The notes under the pieces were generated by a model. The model worked only from the letters and a program-made list of their open reading frames with translations. It did no database searches and had not been told where the DNA came from. From positions 1-36,378 of IMG/VR virus record IMGVR_UViG_3300020045_003741: DNA of 36,378 nt, one strand, 5' to 3'. The translations under genes and the position numbers were made by a program. The DNA is from a virus. Lineage: Duplodnaviria; Caudoviricetes. Positions 1,730-36,011 of the stretch are shown one piece after another. Numbering within the stretch: position 1 is the stretch's first letter; each line of letters starts with the position of its first letter.

Positions 1730-2041
1730 ATGGCAGGTAAAGGCGCACCAAAGGGACGACCCAAGCCGGAAGGGGCCGGCAGAGCTAAGGGAACGCTGAA
1801 TAAAAACACAGCCGACCTTAAAGCGATGGCTTTCGCCGCGCTTAACGCAGGCGCAGGCGGTCAGGCTTTTCTTGAGCAACAGAAACGGGAAAACCCCGTG
1901 GCATTCCTGAACTTCATTGCCAAGTTTGTGCCACGGGATTTGAACCTAGGCGGACAGGATGGCAACCCAATCAAAGCCATACACCGCATCGAACTGGTTC
2001 CGCTTCTAGGTAATGATTCCACAGATAGCCCTACCGAGTAA
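1730..2041 (+). CDS. terS: Terminase small subunit
   Basis: GRAKGTLNKNT basic N-terminus and LNLGGQDGNPI C-terminus typical of TerS; directly upstream of and overlapping terL. Confidence 0.8.
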   Translation: MAGKGAPKGRPKPEGAGRAKGTLNKNTADLKAMAFAALNAGAGGQAFLEQQKRENPVAFLNFIAKFVPRDLNLGGQDGNPIKAIHRIELVPLLGNDSTDSPTE

Positions 2042-3422
2042 GCTTATCCCCGTATTCCACGGCGAGGCGGACGTGCGCGGAGCCTATGGCGGACGCGGTA
2101 GCGCCAAGACCCGCAGCTTTGCAAAGATGGCCGCCGTCAAAGGCTTTATGTTTGGATGTATGGGCATTACCGGGCAGATACTTTGTGCCAGGCAGTTCAT
2201 GAACTCTCTTGATGATAGTTCGCTGGAAGAGTGCAAGCGGGCCATTCAGGATGAACCGTGGCTATTGAGCTACTACGAAATAGGCGATAAGTACATCAAG
2301 TCGTATGATGGCAAGATAGCGTTCAGCTTTGCCGGTCTGGATCGCAACATATCGAGCATCAAATCCAAAGGCCGCATCCTGCTATGTTGGGTCGATGAGG
2401 CCGACGTGGTGAACGAACCGGCATGGCGCACCTTGATACCCACGTTACGGGAGGAAGGCTTGGTTGACGGCAAGGCCTGGAATGCGGAATTGTGGGTAAC
2501 CTGGAACCCCTTGCGTAAGGGTAGCCCAACCGACCTGCGATTCAAGAATAGCACCGACCCGCGCTACAAAATCATCTCGCTTAATTGGCGCGATAACCCC
2601 AAGTTCCCAGCGGTCCTGGAGCGGCAGCGACAGCGGGACTTGCTTAATAAGCCGGATGAATATGATCATATCTGGGAGGGCGCTTACGGCAGCAGCCAAG
2701 GCGCAATCCTGTCACGCTGGGTAAATGAGGCTGAGAGAGAAGGACGCATCCACAATGATGTAACCTACGACAAGCGCGGGCATGGCATCGTTATCAGTTC
2801 TGACATCGGCTTCCGGGACACCACAGGCTGGTGGTACTGGCAGCCGGTCATCGGCGGTGCAAAGTTACTCATGTACGATGGCGCAAGCGGCATGGATTCG
2901 GACGACTGGATACCCATTATCCACGAAAACCTACTTAAGCTTGGTTCCAACTCAAACAACGGCCTGCACAAGATTTGGCTTCCCTCAGACGCCAAAGCCA
3001 AGACCTTCCAAAGCAAAAATACATCCCATGAGAAATTCATCCGCGCTTTCGGCGGCAACAAGGTTCGCATCGTGCCGCAGTCCCGCAAGCACGACCAGAT
3101 CGAGGCGGCGCGTACCTTCATCAAGCGCGTAGAGTTCAATGGCGAACTATGCGAGGATGGGCTGGACGGCCTACGAGCATGGGAATTTGACTATAACGAG
3201 GATGCCGGCGTATTCAGCCGAGAGCCGAAACACAACTGGGCGAGCCATCCTGCCGACGCGTTTTCATACGGATGCCAAGTGCTAAAAGAGCCAATCGAAG
3301 ATAAAAGCACTACACCTATTGACCAGCAACTTATTAATGCTAGTATAGCGAATATAAGCATGGGTAAAATCACGCAAAATCACCTTAAGACCATGAAATC
3401 CAGGCGAGAAAATGCACTATGA
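2013..3422 (+). CDS. terL: Terminase large subunit (PBSX-like)
   Basis: Walker A AYGGRGSAKT, Walker B WVDEAD, coupling motif TWNP, nuclease motifs SSDIGFRD and HNWASHPADAF. Confidence 0.97.
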   Translation: MIPQIALPSKLIPVFHGEADVRGAYGGRGSAKTRSFAKMAAVKGFMFGCMGITGQILCARQFMNSLDDSSLEECKRAIQDEPWLLSYYEIGDKYIKSYDGKIAFSFAGLDRNISSIKSKGRILLCWVDEADVVNEPAWRTLIPTLREEGLVDGKAWNAELWVTWNPLRKGSPTDLRFKNSTDPRYKIISLNWRDNPKFPAVLERQRQRDLLNKPDEYDHIWEGAYGSSQGAILSRWVNEAEREGRIHNDVTYDKRGHGIVISSDIGFRDTTGWWYWQPVIGGAKLLMYDGASGMDSDDWIPIIHENLLKLGSNSNNGLHKIWLPSDAKAKTFQSKNTSHEKFIRAFGGNKVRIVPQSRKHDQIEAARTFIKRVEFNGELCEDGLDGLRAWEFDYNEDAGVFSREPKHNWASHPADAFSYGCQVLKEPIEDKSTTPIDQQLINASIANISMGKITQNHLKTMKSRRENAL

Positions 3423-5725
3423 GTGAGCCAATGAACACCGACCTAGCCTACTGGCTTAATGAAATTGACGGCGCCAAGAAGCGAGACGATGATTATGTCC
3501 GCGACGGCGACCGCATTCTGGACATTTATTCATGCAAGGACGAAAAGAAAGTCCCGTTTAACGTCCTGTTCTCCAATACCGACACCCTCCTCCCCGCGTT
3601 ATTTTCCTCCACCCCGCGCCCGGTAGTACAGCGGCGCTTCAAAGACGATGACCCAATAGGAAAAGCGGCTGCAATGGCCGGCACACGGATGTTGGAGTAT
3701 TTGATCGATACAAATATCGACGGCTACGAAACTTTTACCGAAGGCGTGCAGAAAGCCGTCATCGATGCCCTATTACCTGGGCGCGGAATTACCGCAGTCA
3801 AGTATGATGCAGAAATCAACGAAGAAGACGACCCCAACAAACCAGAACCAGGAGACACCGACAATGAAGAACAAGAAACCGACGACACCGAAGAAGATGC
3901 CACCGAAACAGGGCCGCTGTTAGAGAAAGAAAGCGAACTCGTCTGCATCGATGCAAAAGAATGGGATCGCGTGCTATTCGGCTATTCCAAAAAGTGGTCG
4001 ACCACGCCCTGGATCGCCTTCGAGCAATCGATTGATAAGCCGGAGGCCATCCGTTTATTTGGCGCATCAATAGCCAATAAAATCCAGTATACCAAGGACA
4101 ATGACAAACCCGACGACGACAAGACCAATGGTGACGATGAGAACCAGGGCGGACGCAAGACAGCCGTTATCTATCAAATATGGGACAAGGCAAACGGTCG
4201 CAAGGTGCGTTATGTCTCGCGCCATTACAAGGACGGCTTTCTAAAGGTCGAGGACGACCCGCTAGAGTTGACAGGATTTTACCCCATACCCAAGCCGCTG
4301 TGTATTGTCGCTCAGTCTGTCGATCATGCGCCGATTGCGTCCTATTTATTTTACGAAACTCAAGCCAAGGAACTCAACGAACTGACCCGGCGCATCACGC
4401 TCTTAGCCAAGGCCATCAAGGCCAAAGGCATTTATGATGCCGAACTGGGCGACGATATCGCCAACATGATGGACGGCGACGACAACAGCCTTATGCCTGC
4501 CGACAAGTCCAGCGCCATTGCCGCTGAAAAAGGCTTCCAGAATGCTATCTGGTTCATGCCTGTTGAACAGCTTATCAAGGTATTGCGCGAGCTGTACACG
4601 GCCCGCGAGCAATGCAAGCAGGTAATCTATGAAATCACCGGCATTAGCGACATTATCCGGGGCAGCACCAACGCCAACGAAACCGCCACGGCGCAGAACA
4701 TAAAGAGCCAATGGGGCACCATGCGCCTACAGCGGATGCAGGGCGAAGTCCAGCGCTATGCCCGCGACATATTGCGCATCATGCTGGAGCTAGCCGCGTC
4801 GAAGTTCAGCGAATCGACATGGGCTAAAATGACAGGCTTACCGTTTGCAACGGAAGAGCAAGTGGCGCAGGCGCAAGCCATTGTGCAGGCTTCACAGCAA
4901 ATGCAGCAGCCACAACAAGCACCCATGCAGCCAGGACAGCCACCGCAACAACCCCAAGTCAGCCCCATCGTCCAACAAGCTCAACAAACCCTGCAACAGC
5001 CGCAATGGAGCCAAGTTCTCGAATTGCTTCGTAACGATATCGACCGCAGCTATCGCATCGACATTGAAACAAATTCCACGGTACTGCCGCAACTGCAAGA
5101 AGATCAACAGAATATGGCGCAAGTGCTGGACGCGCTCAGCAAATACCTGCAAGGCGTCACGCCATTGATACAAGCCGGTGCGTTTCCGTTCGAGGCCGCA
5201 AAAGCCATGATGATGAGCGTGGTACGCCGCTTTCAATTCGGCCAGGAGATAGAGGATTACATTAAGGAAATGAAGCAGCCCCAACCGCCTGCGCCACCAC
5301 AAGACAATACGCTGCAAATAAAGCAAATGGAAACTCAAGCGCAGCAGCAGTCCGAAGAAAAGAACGCGCAACTCACGCTGCAAGTCGAGCAGGGCAAGGC
5401 CGCAACACAAATGCGACTTGAGGAAATGAAGAACAGCACCGATATAAAGAAGCACGCCATGACGCTTAATGCGTCCAAGCGAGAGGCCGATGCCATGCAG
5501 TTTGACGAAAATGGGGAGGAGATTATGGGGCCGACACAAATGGAACAAATGATGGCGTTGCTTGAAAATGCGCAACAGCAGAACTTACAGGCACAACAGG
5601 CGCAAACGCAACAGATCGGCGCCATGATAGCCGCCATGACCGAGACGCTTGCCGCGCCCAAGATTATTGTCCGAGATGACTCAGGCCGCGCCGTTGGCGT
5701 TAAAACACTTTCAATATTAAATTAA
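3419..5725 (+). CDS. Portal protein with a long Gln-rich C-terminal extension
   Basis: 768 aa after terL with ATGA overlap; YEITGISDIIRG..ETATAQNIK motif of podovirus-type portals. Confidence 0.9.
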   Translation: MSEPMNTDLAYWLNEIDGAKKRDDDYVRDGDRILDIYSCKDEKKVPFNVLFSNTDTLLPALFSSTPRPVVQRRFKDDDPIGKAAAMAGTRMLEYLIDTNIDGYETFTEGVQKAVIDALLPGRGITAVKYDAEINEEDDPNKPEPGDTDNEEQETDDTEEDATETGPLLEKESELVCIDAKEWDRVLFGYSKKWSTTPWIAFEQSIDKPEAIRLFGASIANKIQYTKDNDKPDDDKTNGDDENQGGRKTAVIYQIWDKANGRKVRYVSRHYKDGFLKVEDDPLELTGFYPIPKPLCIVAQSVDHAPIASYLFYETQAKELNELTRRITLLAKAIKAKGIYDAELGDDIANMMDGDDNSLMPADKSSAIAAEKGFQNAIWFMPVEQLIKVLRELYTAREQCKQVIYEITGISDIIRGSTNANETATAQNIKSQWGTMRLQRMQGEVQRYARDILRIMLELAASKFSESTWAKMTGLPFATEEQVAQAQAIVQASQQMQQPQQAPMQPGQPPQQPQVSPIVQQAQQTLQQPQWSQVLELLRNDIDRSYRIDIETNSTVLPQLQEDQQNMAQVLDALSKYLQGVTPLIQAGAFPFEAAKAMMMSVVRRFQFGQEIEDYIKEMKQPQPPAPPQDNTLQIKQMETQAQQQSEEKNAQLTLQVEQGKAATQMRLEEMKNSTDIKKHAMTLNASKREADAMQFDENGEEIMGPTQMEQMMALLENAQQQNLQAQQAQTQQIGAMIAAMTETLAAPKIIVRDDSGRAVGVKTLSILN

Positions 5726-24753: not shown

Positions 24754-24944
24754 AAGATTTTTTTTTAAGCAGGGCGAGAGAGCCGTCAACATGGCGTGGA
24801 CTTATTTGGGTTCTGGCGTCATTCGGCGTATTCCATTTTACGCATGACCAGGAAGGCGCCATCACGGCCTTGGCGATGGCTCTGGCTGGTGGCGGCGGCT
24901 TGTTGCCTGATAGCCTTAAAAAGTTACCTGTACGGAAAGAGTGA
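24750..24944 (+). CDS. Holin-like membrane protein
   Basis: RAREPSTWRGL motif and two hydrophobic segments; GAGG RBS. Confidence 0.65.
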   Translation: MKDFFLSRAREPSTWRGLIWVLASFGVFHFTHDQEGAITALAMALAGGGGLLPDSLKKLPVRKE

Positions 24945-25175
24945 ACTTTTTTTCTGAATGATTAACTGGTTTTGTTGCTGACGCAAGAATTTTCGTTCAC
25001 GCTCTTCCTGCATTTGTTGGTAAACACGTTGCATTTCTTCGTTGTAACGCTGATCCTCAAGCTGGTACTCATACAGTTTTTGCATTCGCCATTGATTGTA
25101 ATAATCAACAGCGCTTTCATCATCGTAGGCCATGGCCGAGAACGACATGATCAATAGTAAAATTGTTGTTTTCAT
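24924..25175 (-). CDS. Secreted small protein with a Sec signal peptide
   Basis: MKTTILLLIMSFSAMA|YDDES: n-h-c regions and an AMA cleavage motif; AAGAGGT RBS. Confidence 0.7.
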   Translation of the reverse strand: MKTTILLLIMSFSAMAYDDESAVDYYNQWRMQKLYEYQLEDQRYNEEMQRVYQQMQEERERKFLRQQQNQLIIQKKSSLFPYR

Positions 25176-25198
25176 TTTGGCTTACCTCTTAATAAGTT

Positions 25199-25325
25199 GC
25201 GCAACTGACAAGTGTCATTTGTCAGTTCAATATCTTGGCGACGTCCGTATCGCCTCCGATCGTTACGGATTTATGCCGGGATTGGCGTGTCGGTATTGAC
25301 GCGCCAGGTTAGCTCTGCGTTATAC
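25199..25325 (+). mobile_element. Degenerate attC-like site
   Basis: Right half GGTTAGC-TCTGC-GTTATAC (25307-25325); stem CTTGGCG[A]CGTC(25234-25245)/GACGCGCCAGG(25298-25308); candidate R'' GCGCAAC at 25199. Confidence 0.5.
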
Positions 25326-25508
25326 ATCAATATCGGTTTCATAGATTGTTATTTCTCTATAAATAATTCTAAAAACATCGTCTGGTTTTCCGTACAGGCG
25401 TAGGCAATAATGGTGTTCTTTTGCAGAGGATTCCGTTTCAAAGTTGTCGTAATCTTTTCATTGGTCATTTTCAAGTTTTTGCATGACAAAATACTGCTTG
25501 TTTTGCAT
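25320..25508 (-). pseudogene. 62-codon gene with an in-frame TGA, inside the attC-flanked cassette
   Basis: AGGA RBS; MQNKQYFVMQKLENDQ*KDYDNFETESSAKEHH...FRIIYREITIYETDIDV; TGA at 25458-25460; final TAA inside the attC core. Confidence 0.6.
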
Positions 25509-25520
25509 TGTTTATCCTAT

Positions 25521-25544
25521 GTATAACTCTCAGTTCAAGCGGAC
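25521..25544 (+). mobile_element. attC-like left half
   Basis: GTATAAC-TCTCA-GTTCAAGC-GGAC follows the attC layout of R'' core, 5-nt spacer and L''. Confidence 0.55.
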
Positions 25545-25564
25545 AAACCGCCATTTATCGCATT

Positions 25565-25759
25565 TTACGGATCAACCGACTTAATTGCCTCTATTTCTAC
25601 AGAAATTTCAGCCAGAATAGACAAAGAGAATCCCTCCGCCTGAGCTATTAATTTGTGCCTTTCCATTTGTGATAATAGGCCATCATCGAATGTCTCATAA
25701 AACCATTTTCTCATTGCCGCAATAGCGTCGCCTTTTGTAATTAGTTCTTTGTTATTCAT
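25565..25759 (-). CDS. Hypothetical protein
   Basis: MNNKELITKGDAIAAM, 64 aa; ATGA overlap with the upstream gene. Confidence 0.65.
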   Translation of the reverse strand: MNNKELITKGDAIAAMRKWFYETFDDGLLSQMERHKLIAQAEGFSLSILAEISVEIEAIKSVDP

Positions 25760-28732: not shown

Positions 28733-30446
28733 ACTCCACCTCCACCTCCACCAATTCTTTAAATTTACTGTTTGCACCAGGCCGAACCGTAACCGCCACA
28801 ACCTTTTTAAAATACTGCTCCGCATTGTTGAGCAAATGGCACATATTGTCCACCGTCACCCCGGCCTGCCCTAATTCATAATAATCCTCATACCGCTTAA
28901 ACAATTCCATGACGAAGTTTCGCGCCTTGGCTGCCATGCCGCCTGGATGGTCAAGGCAAATATAGTGTATATGGATCAATTCCGCACCCTCGCCGTAAAT
29001 CAGCATTTTAATCATCGGTATGGAGTCTTTGCGCGAATATGCCCGTACATAGACAACGCCTTCAACCTCATGCCTTATCGTCGATGCTTCAATCTTAGCC
29101 GCCAATATTTGAGCTTTCGAGCGCATGGAATACTTGCCTTCTTCATTTTCACTGATAAACTCCCCACCGCACTTGCGGCAAAATTTAGCGGCCAGGATAT
29201 TGGCATAATTGCATTCCTGACCGCGCTTGTACTGTATACCTTCAAACTCTACATGCTCGTCCAGGATCAGTGTGCAAAGCTTCTTTGGGGCCTCACCACG
29301 GCGTTTTTTAGTCTTAGGCGGTAGTGTGGCATCAATCGGCCCGTGCCTATCCACATTCAACCCGTAATCAATGACATAGCCCAGTGCCTTATCTTCATGC
29401 GCCCTGATAACCCTGCCCACCATTTGCACATAAAGCCCTAGGCTCATGGTAGCCCGCATCAGCACGACGCAATCCAGCGCGGTATGGTCGAATCCGGTTG
29501 TATAAAGCCCTACGTTAACCAAATATCGTTTCCCATTTCCGTTTTTAAACCAGTCCATAGTATCGCGTCGTTCTTTATCGCTCATATCACCATACGCCAA
29601 CCTCATGCTGTCATGGTTCCACTCCTTAACTATATGGCGGGCATTATCCAGCTTGGAAGCGAATATCAGCGCCGTTTGAATGTTGTGCGCAGCAAATTTA
29701 ACGCCCATATCCGCAACCGCATCCTTAACAATAGCGTCGAATTTAACGCCCATTTGGTCGGTATTGTAGTCACCTTGGGTTGTCAGTGTTACGCCGGCCA
29801 TATCCGCTTCCACATCGCCGGATATGGATTCAACGTGGCTGAGATAGCCTTCTTGTATCATCGTCGGAATATGCGTTTCATAGGCCATGCCGGTAAACAG
29901 CGCCTTGCCTTTAAAGCAATCGTTATGCAATAGGCCCTGTTCCATTCGATAGGGCGTGGCGGTCAGGCCGATAATTTTCATGGATGGATTAAGGCGCAGC
30001 AGCGAGCGGATAATTTTCCAGTAACTTGATTCTGGATCAGGCGCCACAAGATGGCACTCATCAATAATCAGTAGATTAAATGCGCCGCTATGCGCCCTAC
30101 GGCGCAAAAAAGACATATAGGTGGCAATTACGGCCTTTCTATCGACTTGCGCCCTGTGCAGCTTGGCGCAACAGATGCCCAAGCTTTCAGGCTTATCGAC
30201 ATAATGCCACGCCTCTTCATAGCTCTGTTCGCACAGTTCTTTCGATGGAACCAACTGCAAAACCCGTCCGCCCTGTCTCAATACCTTATTGGTTAGCATG
30301 GCCGACACCAGAGACTTGCCGGACCCGGTGCACATGGCCGCATACGGTATTTCAAAACCGTTTGACGTCCCTGTCATCGGCGTTAGCGCGGATTTTATCA
30401 GGGCATCGTAGGCTTCTTGCTGGTAAAACCTAGGCGTTTTTTTCAT
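28725..30446 (-). CDS. SF2 DExH helicase (RadD/YejH-like) with a zinc ribbon
   Basis: Q motif PRFYQ, Walker A CTGSGKS, DECH, TATP, TTGFD, YVQMVGR; C-terminal Cys cluster. Confidence 0.92.
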   Translation of the reverse strand: MKKTPRFYQQEAYDALIKSALTPMTGTSNGFEIPYAAMCTGSGKSLVSAMLTNKVLRQGGRVLQLVPSKELCEQSYEEAWHYVDKPESLGICCAKLHRAQVDRKAVIATYMSFLRRRAHSGAFNLLIIDECHLVAPDPESSYWKIIRSLLRLNPSMKIIGLTATPYRMEQGLLHNDCFKGKALFTGMAYETHIPTMIQEGYLSHVESISGDVEADMAGVTLTTQGDYNTDQMGVKFDAIVKDAVADMGVKFAAHNIQTALIFASKLDNARHIVKEWNHDSMRLAYGDMSDKERRDTMDWFKNGNGKRYLVNVGLYTTGFDHTALDCVVLMRATMSLGLYVQMVGRVIRAHEDKALGYVIDYGLNVDRHGPIDATLPPKTKKRRGEAPKKLCTLILDEHVEFEGIQYKRGQECNYANILAAKFCRKCGGEFISENEEGKYSMRSKAQILAAKIEASTIRHEVEGVVYVRAYSRKDSIPMIKMLIYGEGAELIHIHYICLDHPGGMAAKARNFVMELFKRYEDYYELGQAGVTVDNMCHLLNNAEQYFKKVVAVTVRPGANSKFKELVEVEVEFE

Positions 30447-30985
30447 AACGCACAAAACTCCGGCGTTAATTGGCGCTTAAACTCGACATAGGCTTTATGG
30501 GCTTCTTCAGGAGTTTTAAACAATCCAAGATGTATTCTATTACCGTTATCTACAGCACTTGCTTGGTATCGTGTCTTACCTCTGCTTTTATGGGCAGACA
30601 CACCCAGTAAATTAAATTTATTATTTTTTTTTGGCATTGATAATGACAATACCATTTCAGCTTTAGTCATTTCCCTAATATTTGTAGCCTTTAGGTTTTT
30701 TTTATCTCCATCAATGTGATCAACATAAATACTTGGTAATCTTCCGTTTAATATAAAAAATGCCAGTCTTGCAACAGGGTATAATTTTCCATCTAAAGTA
30801 ACGGTATAACACTGCTTTTCTTTATTTAAAAATCCGGCGCTATTTTTAGCAAATTTTTTGTTAAAAGACTTCATGGATTTTTCGCTTTTAAAATGGCTAT
30901 TAGGCCTTTCCTTCCACACAAATTCACCAGTTTCCGGGTTATAGTCAAAGCACTCTTTTAGGTACTCTTGTGTTAATTCAGTCAT
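30443..30985 (-). CDS. HNH-AP2 endonuclease-like protein, possibly catalytically degenerate
   Basis: MTELTQEYLKECFDYNPETGEFVW, VDHIDGDK, AP2-like HLGLFKTPEEAHKAY; AT-rich. Confidence 0.85.
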   Translation of the reverse strand: MTELTQEYLKECFDYNPETGEFVWKERPNSHFKSEKSMKSFNKKFAKNSAGFLNKEKQCYTVTLDGKLYPVARLAFFILNGRLPSIYVDHIDGDKKNLKATNIREMTKAEMVLSLSMPKKNNKFNLLGVSAHKSRGKTRYQASAVDNGNRIHLGLFKTPEEAHKAYVEFKRQLTPEFCAL

Positions 30986-30996
30986 AATTCCACCAT

Positions 30997-31126
30997 AAAA
31001 AAAGCCGACCTTTGCACGTTCAGACAGGCGAGAACACCTCATGCAAAAAAGTCGGCTTTGTTTAAATTCTCTTGAACGGGTCTGACTCCGTGGATTGATT
31101 ATAGGCTGTTTTATTTTACGAGTAAA
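30997..31126 (-). promoter_or_regulatory. Promoter plus terminator-like leader for the HNH-AP2 gene
   Basis: TTTACT-17 nt-TATAAT (31126-31098); hairpin AAAGCCGAC/GTCGGCTTT followed by a T run just before the start codon. Confidence 0.65.
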
Positions 31127-33738: not shown

Positions 33739-34155
33739 TTACCTAAAACAATACGCCTTCGCCGCACTGATTCGATCCCGTGCCAGCGATACCCGTGCCG
33801 CATCCTCTTCCGTCAAGGCCATGCCTTTGGATACCGCAAATGCCGCCAGGTCAATAATACCCGCCTCATATTCCAATGACCGCAATACCGTGGCCGCATC
33901 AAAATATTGGCGCTTGTGGCGTTCATAATTGGCCGTCAAGTCGCGCGGGAACAAATCCGATACCTTGAGTCCGATGCTATCGCAAATATCGTCTATGCCG
34001 CAGCCTGACCAGCATTTGATTAATATCTTGCCGTCATCGGTTAATTTAATGGCAAGACTTGGATGTTTGTCGTCATGGGCAGGGCAGCCGGCGACCCATT
34101 GATTTGTTTTGGTGGATTTGACGCGGGACAGGCGCGACAGCAGGGTATCGATCAT
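33739..34155 (-). CDS. Stand-alone primase zinc-binding domain (CHC2-type) protein
   Basis: CPAHDDKHPSL..ILIKCWSGC..IGLKVSDLFP; no catalytic domain in 138 aa. Confidence 0.85.
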   Translation of the reverse strand: MIDTLLSRLSRVKSTKTNQWVAGCPAHDDKHPSLAIKLTDDGKILIKCWSGCGIDDICDSIGLKVSDLFPRDLTANYERHKRQYFDAATVLRSLEYEAGIIDLAAFAVSKGMALTEEDAARVSLARDRISAAKAYCFR

Positions 34156-34418
34156 TTTGCTTCGCTCTTTTTATAAGCATTTATCATTTCATGATCGGAA
34201 TCATAAAATGTACAGTCATCAAAAAAAGAGCGCGTCACAACAATGGTGTCTGTTGGTTCTCCGGTCATGAAGCTAAACAGCATGCAGCAGCCTGATCTGT
34301 CCTTTTTCAACTCCACTATATAGCCTTGGTATTTTATCTTTTCATCTTGCCAGTAATGGAAAAAAGCGATAGGTGTATCAGCGTACGACCTTGGCTTGTA
34401 GTCTTTTATCGTTTTCAT
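34152..34418 (-). CDS. Hypothetical protein
   Basis: 88 aa; ATGA overlap with the zinc-finger gene. Confidence 0.7.
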   Translation of the reverse strand: MKTIKDYKPRSYADTPIAFFHYWQDEKIKYQGYIVELKKDRSGCCMLFSFMTGEPTDTIVVTRSFFDDCTFYDSDHEMINAYKKSEAK

Positions 34419-34490
34419 TTTATAGCCCTTTTGTTTTAAAGTGTAGATAGTGTAATATGCTGGAAAACAACAATCAAGGAAAATAATATT

Positions 34491-34682
34491 ATGGTTATAG
34501 ATGCTAGAGAAGAAAGAGCAATTAGCCTAAAGGAAACCGCAGCTATCCTTAGTGTTTCACGGCCAACATTATTGAAATTACTGGATGAAAGGAAGTTAAA
34601 GTCAGTGCGTGTGTCGCCGGGGCGAAGGGCCGTCTTGCGCTCAGAGCTGGATCGGTATCTTGCCTCATTGACAGCGGAGTAG
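34491..34682 (+). CDS. Excisionase-like HTH DNA-binding protein
   Basis: ISLKETAAILSVSRPTLLKLLDERKLKSVRV..RAVLRSELDRY; AAGGA RBS. Confidence 0.85.
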   Translation: MVIDAREERAISLKETAAILSVSRPTLLKLLDERKLKSVRVSPGRRAVLRSELDRYLASLTAE

Positions 34683-34688
34683 TTCGGC

Positions 34689-36011
34689 ATGAAAATCGAA
34701 AAAGTATTGAATCGATTTGATGAACAAATGCGGCGCATGGCAGAGGCCGAGGCCGAAGCAGAACTCGACCCATACGAACCTGAAGCGCAGGAATGGAACC
34801 CAAACCTGAGCGATGCCATTGATTACATTATCCCCTTCGATTGCGTGGCCCGAGATATACAGCAATGGATTTTATCGTCCAGCATTTACCCGCAACCGGC
34901 TATTTCTTTTGCCGCTACAATGTCTATCCTTAGCGTTGCCATAGGGCGCGGCGTGGCGTATGAAAATATCAAGGGGAATCTCATGTACTTGTGTATGGCC
35001 GAGTCAGGTGAGGGCAAAGACTGGCCGTTTAAGGCGGCAAAAAAAGTATTGGATGCCGTAGACATGGGCAATCGTGTGCATGGGCGCATGGCGTCAGGCG
35101 CGGCGCTTTATGAGTCATTGGACAGTCATCCATCCATGCTGTTCCACATTGATGAGTTCGGCAATTACTTGAGCAGCATTAACGGCAAGAATAGCAACCA
35201 ATACAGCAAGGAGATCGTTGACATCATGACGGAGTGCTATACATCCGCCGATGGTTGCGTGTACAGCAAAACACTGAAAGGCAAGGAGCCGCTCAAAATT
35301 ACCGAGCCGAATTTGTGCGTGTTTGGACTTAGCACGGAACGCCAAGTGTTCGATGGTCTGCGAACGTCTGACCTGGCTAACGGTTCATTAGCGCGCTATT
35401 CACTTCTTTTTGGTCTGTCCGGCATGGAGCCGCGCAGGATTAAGCCGGAGGCGCGGGAGTTGCCGATAACGATCGTTGAAAGGTTGCGAGAGTATATCGA
35501 TAGCGTGCAGCCGTTTATGATTGCGTCCCGTCAGATACCTGTTTCCGAGAAATACGATGATGCCAAGTTTGATTTATCGTTAAGACTTAAGCGATTCAGC
35601 AATGAGTTAATTAAAAACGATGGAAATAAGGCCGCTTTCGTTCCCATGGTCAATAGAATTGCCGTAAGGTGCATACAGCAAGCCATGATTATTGATTTGT
35701 GTCATAGCGTCGATGTATTGGCTTGGATTGAAAAGCTGGAAATGGATTCGGTTAATGTATTTATGAAAAAGTTTTTGCACCTTGGGGCGGATAACGAAGA
35801 TGAGCGTTTGGCGAACTTGTTACATGCCAAGATTAAGGAGGCCGGTACGAAAGGCATAAGCGCCAAGGATTTGATTTTTAAGACTCGCCAGATAAAAACG
35901 CCTGTAAGACAGGCTATGATTAGGGATTTGTTGGATTGTGGAATTATCGGTGAACGGAAAATAGACAAGGGAACGCAGCGATTTACTACGGTTTATTTTT
36001 GGATTAAATAA
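34689..36011 (+). CDS. DUF3987-like P-loop ATPase, putative replicative helicase/origin-binding protein
   Basis: IYPQPAI, Walker A AESGEGKD, Walker B FHIDEFG, GSLARY; winged-helix-like C-terminus. Confidence 0.8.
   Translation: MKIEKVLNRFDEQMRRMAEAEAEAELDPYEPEAQEWNPNLSDAIDYIIPFDCVARDIQQWILSSSIYPQPAISFAATMSILSVAIGRGVAYENIKGNLMYLCMAESGEGKDWPFKAAKKVLDAVDMGNRVHGRMASGAALYESLDSHPSMLFHIDEFGNYLSSINGKNSNQYSKEIVDIMTECYTSADGCVYSKTLKGKEPLKITEPNLCVFGLSTERQVFDGLRTSDLANGSLARYSLLFGLSGMEPRRIKPEARELPITIVERLREYIDSVQPFMIASRQIPVSEKYDDAKFDLSLRLKRFSNELIKNDGNKAAFVPMVNRIAVRCIQQAMIIDLCHSVDVLAWIEKLEMDSVNVFMKKFLHLGADNEDERLANLLHAKIKEAGTKGISAKDLIFKTRQIKTPVRQAMIRDLLDCGIIGERKIDKGTQRFTTVYFWIK

What the first reader, a model, noticed from the sequence alone, without database searches (positions are those of the whole stretch)
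25199..25590. Integron-style gene cassette with attC-like ends in a phage genome, ORF antisense to the attC polarity
Seen: one small gene is bounded by GGTTAGC-TCTGC-GTTATAC (25307-25325, attC right-half layout) and GTATAAC-TCTCA-GTTCAAGC-GGAC (25521-25544, attC left-half layout). The two cores are exact reverse complements over 9 bp (GTTATACAT/ATGTATAAC). The RBS starts right after one core and the stop codon lies inside the other. The left site keeps a stem with a bulged A (25234-25245/25298-25308). The right site's partner half is decayed (CCGACTTAATTGCC, 25576-25589, no GTT). No integrase is encoded. Established: complementary R'/R'' cores flanking a single promoterless ORF are the hallmark of IntI-mobilised cassettes; their ORFs usually run in the same direction as the attC; integrons are regarded as rare or absent in phages. 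Inference: the phage early region gains and shuffles accessory genes as cassettes using a host integron integrase, with inverted polarity so they are read from the phage early promoter. This would be a phage-side cassette system.
Basis: partly seen in the sequence, partly recalled or inferred. Interest (0 to 1): 0.8.

Follow-up and report, generated by a model that had tools for sequence, protein, structure and literature searches.

The report
Fossil reversed integron cassette in phage
A small broken gene in this bacterial virus sits between two halves of the DNA hairpins that bacteria use to swap gene cassettes; it is likely a stranded, no longer movable remnant of the back-to-front cassette arrays that other viruses, including distant relatives, still carry.

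Summary
The two attC-like half-sites and the 9-bp complementary cores are real and far above chance. They are pieces of true attC families that occur intact in other phages' arrays (42 of 45 nt identical). But only the two inner halves are present. The claimed left stem and the 'decayed' right half are coding DNA of neighbouring genes, no complete attC scores (12 and 9 bits against 36-74), and the ORF has a TGA at codon 17 where all 4 homologues have Trp. So this unit is a dead, probably immobile cassette relic.

The wider idea largely holds. Cassette genes are antisense to attC in 27 of 49 viral cassettes and sense in 0 (bacteria: 4 antisense, 15 sense, of 40). Distant relatives have, at this same position, a palindromic attI-like site followed by three different sequences from the GTT core. 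No integrase is encoded; use of host IntI is inferred.

attC arrays in phages are in print (Qi 2023). One of its phages is inverted, which the text I read does not remark. This scan has noted inverted phage arrays at least eight times in other windows.

The parts
25300..25325 (+). Right-hand 26 nt (inner arm, L' 25307-25313, 5-nt spacer, R' 25319-25325) of an 88-102-nt attC family ('family A'); the left part is missing and the remnant is fused directly to the lipoprotein stop codon
   Evidence: 29 of 30 nt to L009; matches also in L013, L029, L040; 31.0 bits
25319..25327 (+). R' core with the G|TT crossover (25319/25320); 9-bp exact complement of 25519-25527
25320..25508 (-). 62-codon cassette ORF, pseudogene; small phage-type beta-hairpin/helix/strand protein of no known family
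25458..25460 (-). In-frame TGA at codon 17; Trp in 4 of 4 homologues
25515..25518 (-). Shine-Dalgarno-like AGGA, 6 nt before the ATG
   Evidence: sequence
25521..25565 (+). Left-hand 45 nt (R'' 25521-25527, spacer, L'' 25533-25540, arm, part of loop) of a 95-97-nt attC family ('family B'); L' and R' are missing; homology ends at the stop codon of ORF 25565-25759
   Evidence: E 1e-13 to L013; 42 of 45 nt; 0 of 300 shuffles; 24.6 bits
25147..25299 (+). Context: last late-strand gene, a small lipoprotein-like protein; contains the claimed stem arm 25234-25245; its stop codon marks the slot where relatives carry a palindromic array-end site
25565..25759 (-). Context: upstream early gene (64 aa); contains the claimed 'decayed half' 25576-25589

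Best explanation
25300-25565 is a single integron-type cassette core, a nonsense-broken 62-codon gene bounded by complementary cores and only the inner half of each of two attC sites, and it is likely the trapped remnant of a reversed-polarity phage cassette array that would no longer be excisable. Steps: (1) shown: both halves belong to attC families found whole in other phages' arrays, in the same order around other genes (family B - methyltransferase - family A in L013). (2) shown: in such arrays the genes run antisense to attC, so each gene's own attC lies at its 5' end. (3) shown: distant relatives have, right after the same lipoprotein stop, a palindromic site plus GTT core followed by different DNA. 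(4) inferred: a host IntI loads cassettes at that site at the far end of the early operon, where early transcription reads them. (5) inferred: in the lineage of the window and L002, deletions or illegitimate recombination that spared the neighbouring genes cut through both hairpins and removed the end site; the gene then decayed (TGA here, internal loss in L002).
For: Left half 42 of 45 nt identical to an intact 95-nt site in L013, which was fetched by the other motif, so the match is independent. That family heads four different genes in three other phage contigs, diverging right after the core. Intact sites fold as long hairpins and score 36-74 bits; the window's do not fold that way and score 12.1 and 9.0 bits. 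Homology ends exactly at the flanking stop codons, 25299 and 25565. L002 keeps the family-A half with R' mutated (20.5 bits), the RBS/start (17 of 18 nt, 0 of 300 shuffles) and, upstream, the other half of family B (16 of 18 nt, 1 of 300 shuffles). Polarity: viral 30 antisense, 4 sense, 15 tied of 49; bacterial 8, 28, 4 of 40; with an SD filter viral 27 antisense, 0 sense, bacterial 4 and 15; two methyltransferase cassettes named by PHROGs are antisense. L146, L147(=L148) and L149: near-identical 30-nt site, then three different sequences from GTTA; L147 has a full inverted attC (41.7 bits) and complementary cores. No IntI in 5 of 5 phage records tested, 2 of them complete; IntI in 5 of 5 bacterial genomes whose arrays share the left half.
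Against: Two earlier polarity tests were inconclusive for the viral set (9 antisense, 5 sense, 18 tied of 32; 21, 16, 12 of 49); the clear result came only after ORFs were allowed to run into both flanking sites, a change made after seeing the data. The covariance model was trained on sites fetched with the window's own motifs. No DNA context of an intact homologue of the ORF could be fetched, so its cassette state elsewhere rests on peptide hints only. Only 2 close and 3 distinct distant relatives were found. L003 lacks the unit with a break 20 nt short of GTT, and the order of events (loss from an ancestral array, or later capture of a fragment) is not resolved. The TGA could be an assembly error; reads were not available.
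Confidence: 0.8

Rival explanations
1. The locus is a working phage cassette site: the left half-site serves as an attI-like entry point and the unit is still mobilised by host IntI.
For: Perfect cores; an L'-spacer-R' sits exactly where relatives have their array-end site; IntI uses non-classical double-stranded sites (bioRxiv 2022.09.11.507474, abstract and headings).
Against: Own attC lacks L'/R' and does not fold; ORF is dead; in L002 the G of GTT is mutated, and L003 lacks the site; no second cassette in the window.
Confidence: 0.07
2. The unit was captured from a bacterial integron or dropped into the phage by IntI at a secondary (attG) site, and its reversed gene is incidental.
For: The left-half motif opens real attC sites in many bacterial and archaeal genomes, some with IntI; 8 of 40 bacterial cassettes scored antisense; cargo GC is 33% against 49% for the window.
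Against: The closest matches to both halves are phage arrays, not the bacterial loci fetched; DNA before G|TT is another attC's L'-spacer, not unrelated phage DNA; the cargo fold matches uncharacterised phage proteins, with no solved-structure match.
Confidence: 0.1
3. The motifs are chance look-alikes in intergenic DNA.
For: No whole-site model hit is significant (best E 0.59); no Rfam match; no similar DNA in the phage or plasmid record collections.
Against: 46 nt at 93% to another phage's attC, E 1e-13; both halves exceed 100 of 100 resampled windows; right order, spacing and complementary cores.
Confidence: 0.02

Closest known systems
Phage-borne CALINs and attC sites (Qi, Rajabal, Ghaly, Tetu, Gillings 2023, PMC9892861)
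   Same: attC-bounded accessory genes in a phage without IntI; methyltransferase cargo in the intact donor arrays; a palindrome with inverted GTTRRRY boxes at the array head (their TJE1 'terminator'; same layout as in L146-L149). One of their phages, MW202573, has 4 of 4 model hits opposite to its annotated genes.
   Different: The window has no complete attC and a dead ORF, so it would not be called a CALIN. TJE1, whose sites recombined in their assay, is canonical in polarity (2 of 2 model hits sense). The main text I read does not describe systematic inversion or a phage entry site.
Bacterial integron gene cassette (IntI/attI/attC)
   Same: G|TT core, complementary R'/R'' cores around one promoterless ORF, R''-5 nt-L'' and L'-5 nt-R' boxes with the extra base in L''.
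   Different: Gene antisense to attC, own attC at the gene's 5' end, no intI, no attI, both hairpins halved.
Isolated cassettes inserted at attG sites (Loot et al., bioRxiv 10.1101/2022.09.11.507474; abstract and headings only)
   Same: A lone cassette outside an integron.
   Different: Here the crossover is preceded by another attC's L' box (array context) and the cassette's own attC is truncated.

Membership tests
Integron gene cassette | Complementary R' and R'' cores bounding the unit | tested here: met
   9-bp exact complement; 33 of 49 viral and 35 of 41 bacterial cassettes show 6 of 6
Integron gene cassette | Own complete attC (R''-L''-L'-R') that folds on the bottom strand | tested here: not met
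   9.0 bits, E 3.9; no long hairpin; homology to the intact family ends at 25565
Integron gene cassette | Half-sites derive from genuine attC families | tested here: met
Integron gene cassette | Single promoterless ORF, intact | tested here: not met
   ORF present with RBS, but TGA at codon 17
Integron gene cassette | ORF in the same direction as attC (usual, not obligatory) | tested here: not met
   antisense, controls
Integron gene cassette | Excision or insertion by IntI | not testable with these tools
   needs a recombination assay
CALIN (Qi 2023 criterion) | At least two predicted attC sites within 3 kb | tested here: not met
   0 significant sites in the window, 0 in L002 and L003 records; my own model, not IntegronFinder's
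CALIN (Qi 2023 criterion) | No integron integrase | tested here: met
   PF00589 0 of 1 in the complete genome
Complete integron | intI gene | tested here: not met
Complete integron | attI at the array head | tested here: inconclusive
   absent from the window; candidate palindromic site at this slot in L146-L149, function untested
attG insertion / isolated cassette | Non-att DNA directly before G|TT and an intact own attC | tested here: not met
   an attC L'-spacer precedes GTT; own attC truncated

The most novel reading that the evidence does not exclude
Many phages keep their own mirror-image integron platform at the point where early and late transcription meet: a palindromic attI-like entry site, loaded by the host's IntI with phage-born cassettes whose attC precedes the gene, forming a cassette pool apart from the bacterial one. 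This genome and its relatives record the whole life cycle of one slot: active exchange at G|TT (L146, L147, L149), loss of the entry site and halving of the hairpins (window, L002), and complete loss (L003).
Probability: 0.45. Interest if true: 0.75.

Novelty: new variant of a known kind. Interest (0 to 1): 0.4.

Why it matters
The unit itself is a dead relic and does little. It matters as a record: it shows that reversed attC cassettes in phages come from a shared phage pool (one near-identical attC heads five different genes, counting this one), that they are exchanged at the GTT core at a fixed slot, and how they decay into half-sites that whole-site attC searches miss. If the palindromic end site works as an attI with a host integrase, phages would have a site-specific route for gaining accessory genes such as methyltransferases, and counts of integron parts in phages would be too low.

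Tried and rejected
Rfam scan: no match. Exact 21-nt and 19-nt half-site patterns in viral contigs: 0. DNA similarity in phage and plasmid records: chance only. Loci encoding the cassette ORF: none in viral contigs, metagenome contigs or 5 array-bearing records; first word-based protein search empty. Gene 24924-25175: no relative in viral contigs. Sequencing runs: none was listed, so the TGA could not be checked in reads. Recoding of TGA as Trp: rejected (11 of 39 genes end in TGA, TGG is used in 38 of 39). A decayed left half at 25187-25209, suggested by the top model hit: rejected (-14 bits). Gene 24924-25175 as a second cassette: rejected, the holin-like gene end is conserved across its supposed core. 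Kinship of L149's last gene to the cassette ORF: rejected at DNA level (143 of 300 shuffles). Promoter scan: 7 sites against 8.1 expected, no evidence. Function of the cargo: no PHROG, no named Atlas cluster, no solved-structure match. Host: not identified; nearest public capsid protein is 64% identical, host unknown, and that genome has no model hit.

Full report
Setting. The window is a complete virus record with direct terminal repeats (121-nt repeat): head, tail and lysis genes on the + strand, replication and small accessory genes on the - strand. The finding lies where the two sets converge. No tyrosine recombinase is encoded.

What is in the sequence. The ORF 25508-25320 has an in-frame TGA at codon 17. 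TGA is a stop in this phage (11 of 39 genes), and all 4 homologues found have Trp there (47-74% identity), so the gene is real but broken. A model of homologue P0009 (4-row alignment, pLDDT 85) resembles many uncharacterised small phage proteins (best E 0.003, none under 0.001) and no solved structure.

The halves are real attC DNA. A 16-nt pattern from the left site hit 55 viral loci. Of 47 searched (8 duplicates left out), 38 have a full attC over the match by a covariance model; the model was trained on 29 of these viral and 37 bacterial sites, so this count is partly circular. The window's 25300-25325 is the last 26 nt of that family. Independently, the window's other half, 25520-25565, matches the first 46 nt of an intact site in L013 (93%, E 1e-13) and two in L046 (42 of 45 nt, 0 of 300 shuffles). 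In L013 the same two site families flank a DNA methyltransferase gene in the same order, and this family heads four different genes in L013, L046 and L015. In bacterial and archaeal genomes the same R''-L'' motif (86 stretches) opens full attC hairpins (83 of 85 loci searched, 2 duplicates left out), and 5 of 5 array-bearing genomes tested encode IntI.

Only the inner halves are here. The model scores the window's two sites 12.1 and 9.0 bits (E 0.59 and 3.9) against 36-74 bits for intact ones. Intact family members fold into long bottom-strand hairpins that pair the R boxes; equal-length window stretches do not. The claimed left stem arm is coding DNA of a conserved lipoprotein-like late gene, its fold is not significant on the bottom strand (z -0.59; top strand z -2.13 through other local hairpins), and L002 changes it without compensation. 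The claimed decayed half is the coding end of ORF 25565-25759. Homology to the donor families stops at the stop codons of the two neighbours (25299 and 25565). Since attC recombines as a folded bottom strand (PMC8946536, passages), this cassette should not be excisable (inference).

Relatives. Two close relatives were found (helicase 88% and 82%). L002 keeps the family-A half with the G of GTT changed, a short ORF sharing the RBS and start (17 of 18 nt) and, about 330 nt upstream, the other half of family B (16 of 18 nt; 1 of 300 shuffles): the common ancestor likely had a whole family-B site and at least two cassettes. L003 lacks the unit, and its break is at the lipoprotein stop, 20 nt short of GTT. 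Five metagenome loci carry the lipoprotein gene; one ends inside it and two are identical at the junction. In the three distinct ones (L146, L147=L148, L149) the stop codon is followed by a 26-nt palindrome bounded by GTT and AAT boxes, 4 nt, a GTTA core, and then three different sequences. L147 holds a 65-aa gene with complementary cores and a full inverted attC (41.7 bits). A similar end motif closes arrays in L013, L039 and L040; in G001 the array also ends where early genes meet the lysis genes.

Polarity. Between neighbouring model hits, the best-covering ORF was antisense in 30, sense in 4 and tied in 15 of 49 viral cassettes, against 8, 28 and 4 of 40 bacterial ones (one pair's 41 was not in the list). 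Requiring an SD and over 60% cover gave 27 antisense, 0 sense, 2 both, 20 none, against 4, 15, 0, 21. Two earlier, stricter-boundary tests were inconclusive for viruses (9, 5, 18 of 32 upstream; 21, 16, 12 of 49) and clear for bacteria; the third test let ORFs start and stop inside the sites and was designed after those results. None of 5 phage records tested has IntI. Homologue P0008 ends in the same residues as the window's ORF and has an N-terminal extension resembling the peptides that family-A hairpins encode, a soft hint that it too sits in an inverted cassette.

Mechanism. Shown: origin of the halves, truncation, dead ORF, inverted polarity in phage arrays, different DNA after a shared core at this slot in distant relatives. 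Inferred: host IntI loads cassettes at the distal end of the early operon, where they harm no essential gene and are read by early transcription; later deletion or illegitimate recombination halved both hairpins in this lineage. Not resolved: loss from an ancestral array at this slot, or capture of a fragment from another phage.

Literature. PMC9892861 (read: parts 1-4 of 7, the whole main text; supplement part 1 of 2; figures and the Dryad file not seen) reports 17 phage CALINs among 10,705 genomes and IntI1 recombination of 5 of 6 phage attC sites. With my model TJE1 is canonical (2 hits) and MW202573 inverted (4 hits; first 34,000 of 34,630 bases). The palindrome they noted before the TJE1 array has the same layout as the end site above. 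Six searches showed no paper on systematically inverted phage arrays; only listings were seen for the other hits, the library lacks most subscription journals, and the unseen figures may show the inversion. bioRxiv 10.1101/2022.09.11.507474 was seen as abstract and headings. The R/L box names are standard usage, also. Eight earlier notes of this scan describe inverted phage arrays in other windows; none covers this genome or this sequence.

Verdict. Observation partly confirmed. The unit works like nothing today, but it descends from a reversed-polarity phage cassette array: a variant of the published phage CALINs. Interest 0.4.

Noticed in passing
L146:1238-1267, L147:353-382, L149:2021-2050: Palindromic array-end site directly after the last late gene, followed by different cassettes at GTT; the inner 14 nt of the palindrome are reverse-complemented between L146 and L149, as if the segment had flipped between its inverted boxes. 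Same layout heads the TJE1 array (L155:49197-49219 and 1-7) and ends arrays in L013, L039, L040.
   Followed up: partly
L156 (MW202573) 2069-3738: A published phage CALIN whose four model hits lie opposite to its annotated genes, while TJE1's two hits are canonical.
   Followed up: partly
window 24796-25299: The lipoprotein-like gene, continuous in L002 and L003, is split here by an insert carrying the antisense gene 24924-25175; the C-terminal half has a new signal peptide with a lipobox-like Cys (25147 onward), written on the opposite strand of the inserted gene's start. A 9-bp perfect inverted repeat (25205-25229) marks the junction.
   Followed up: partly
window 25565-25583 and L002:15644-15662: A 19-nt stretch identical in both phages with unrelated DNA on both sides; unexplained, possibly a collapsed older attC.
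   Followed up: partly
L014:1201-1216 and 1393-1408; L146:1695-1718; L002:15896-15913: Lone attC halves are common in these phages, so whole-site searches undercount cassette-derived genes.
   Followed up: no
L064 (Propionivibrio MAG) 1883-3217: Three of four cassettes score antisense with an SD in a bacterial contig; perhaps a prophage with an inverted array.
   Followed up: no
window 33739-36011: Primase is in two pieces on opposite strands: an N-terminal match at 33739-34155 (-) and a C-terminal match at 34689-36011 (+); the same split layout is seen in L147.
   Followed up: no
window 30443-31042: HNH endonuclease gene next to the helicase, outside the stretches shared with L002.
   Followed up: no
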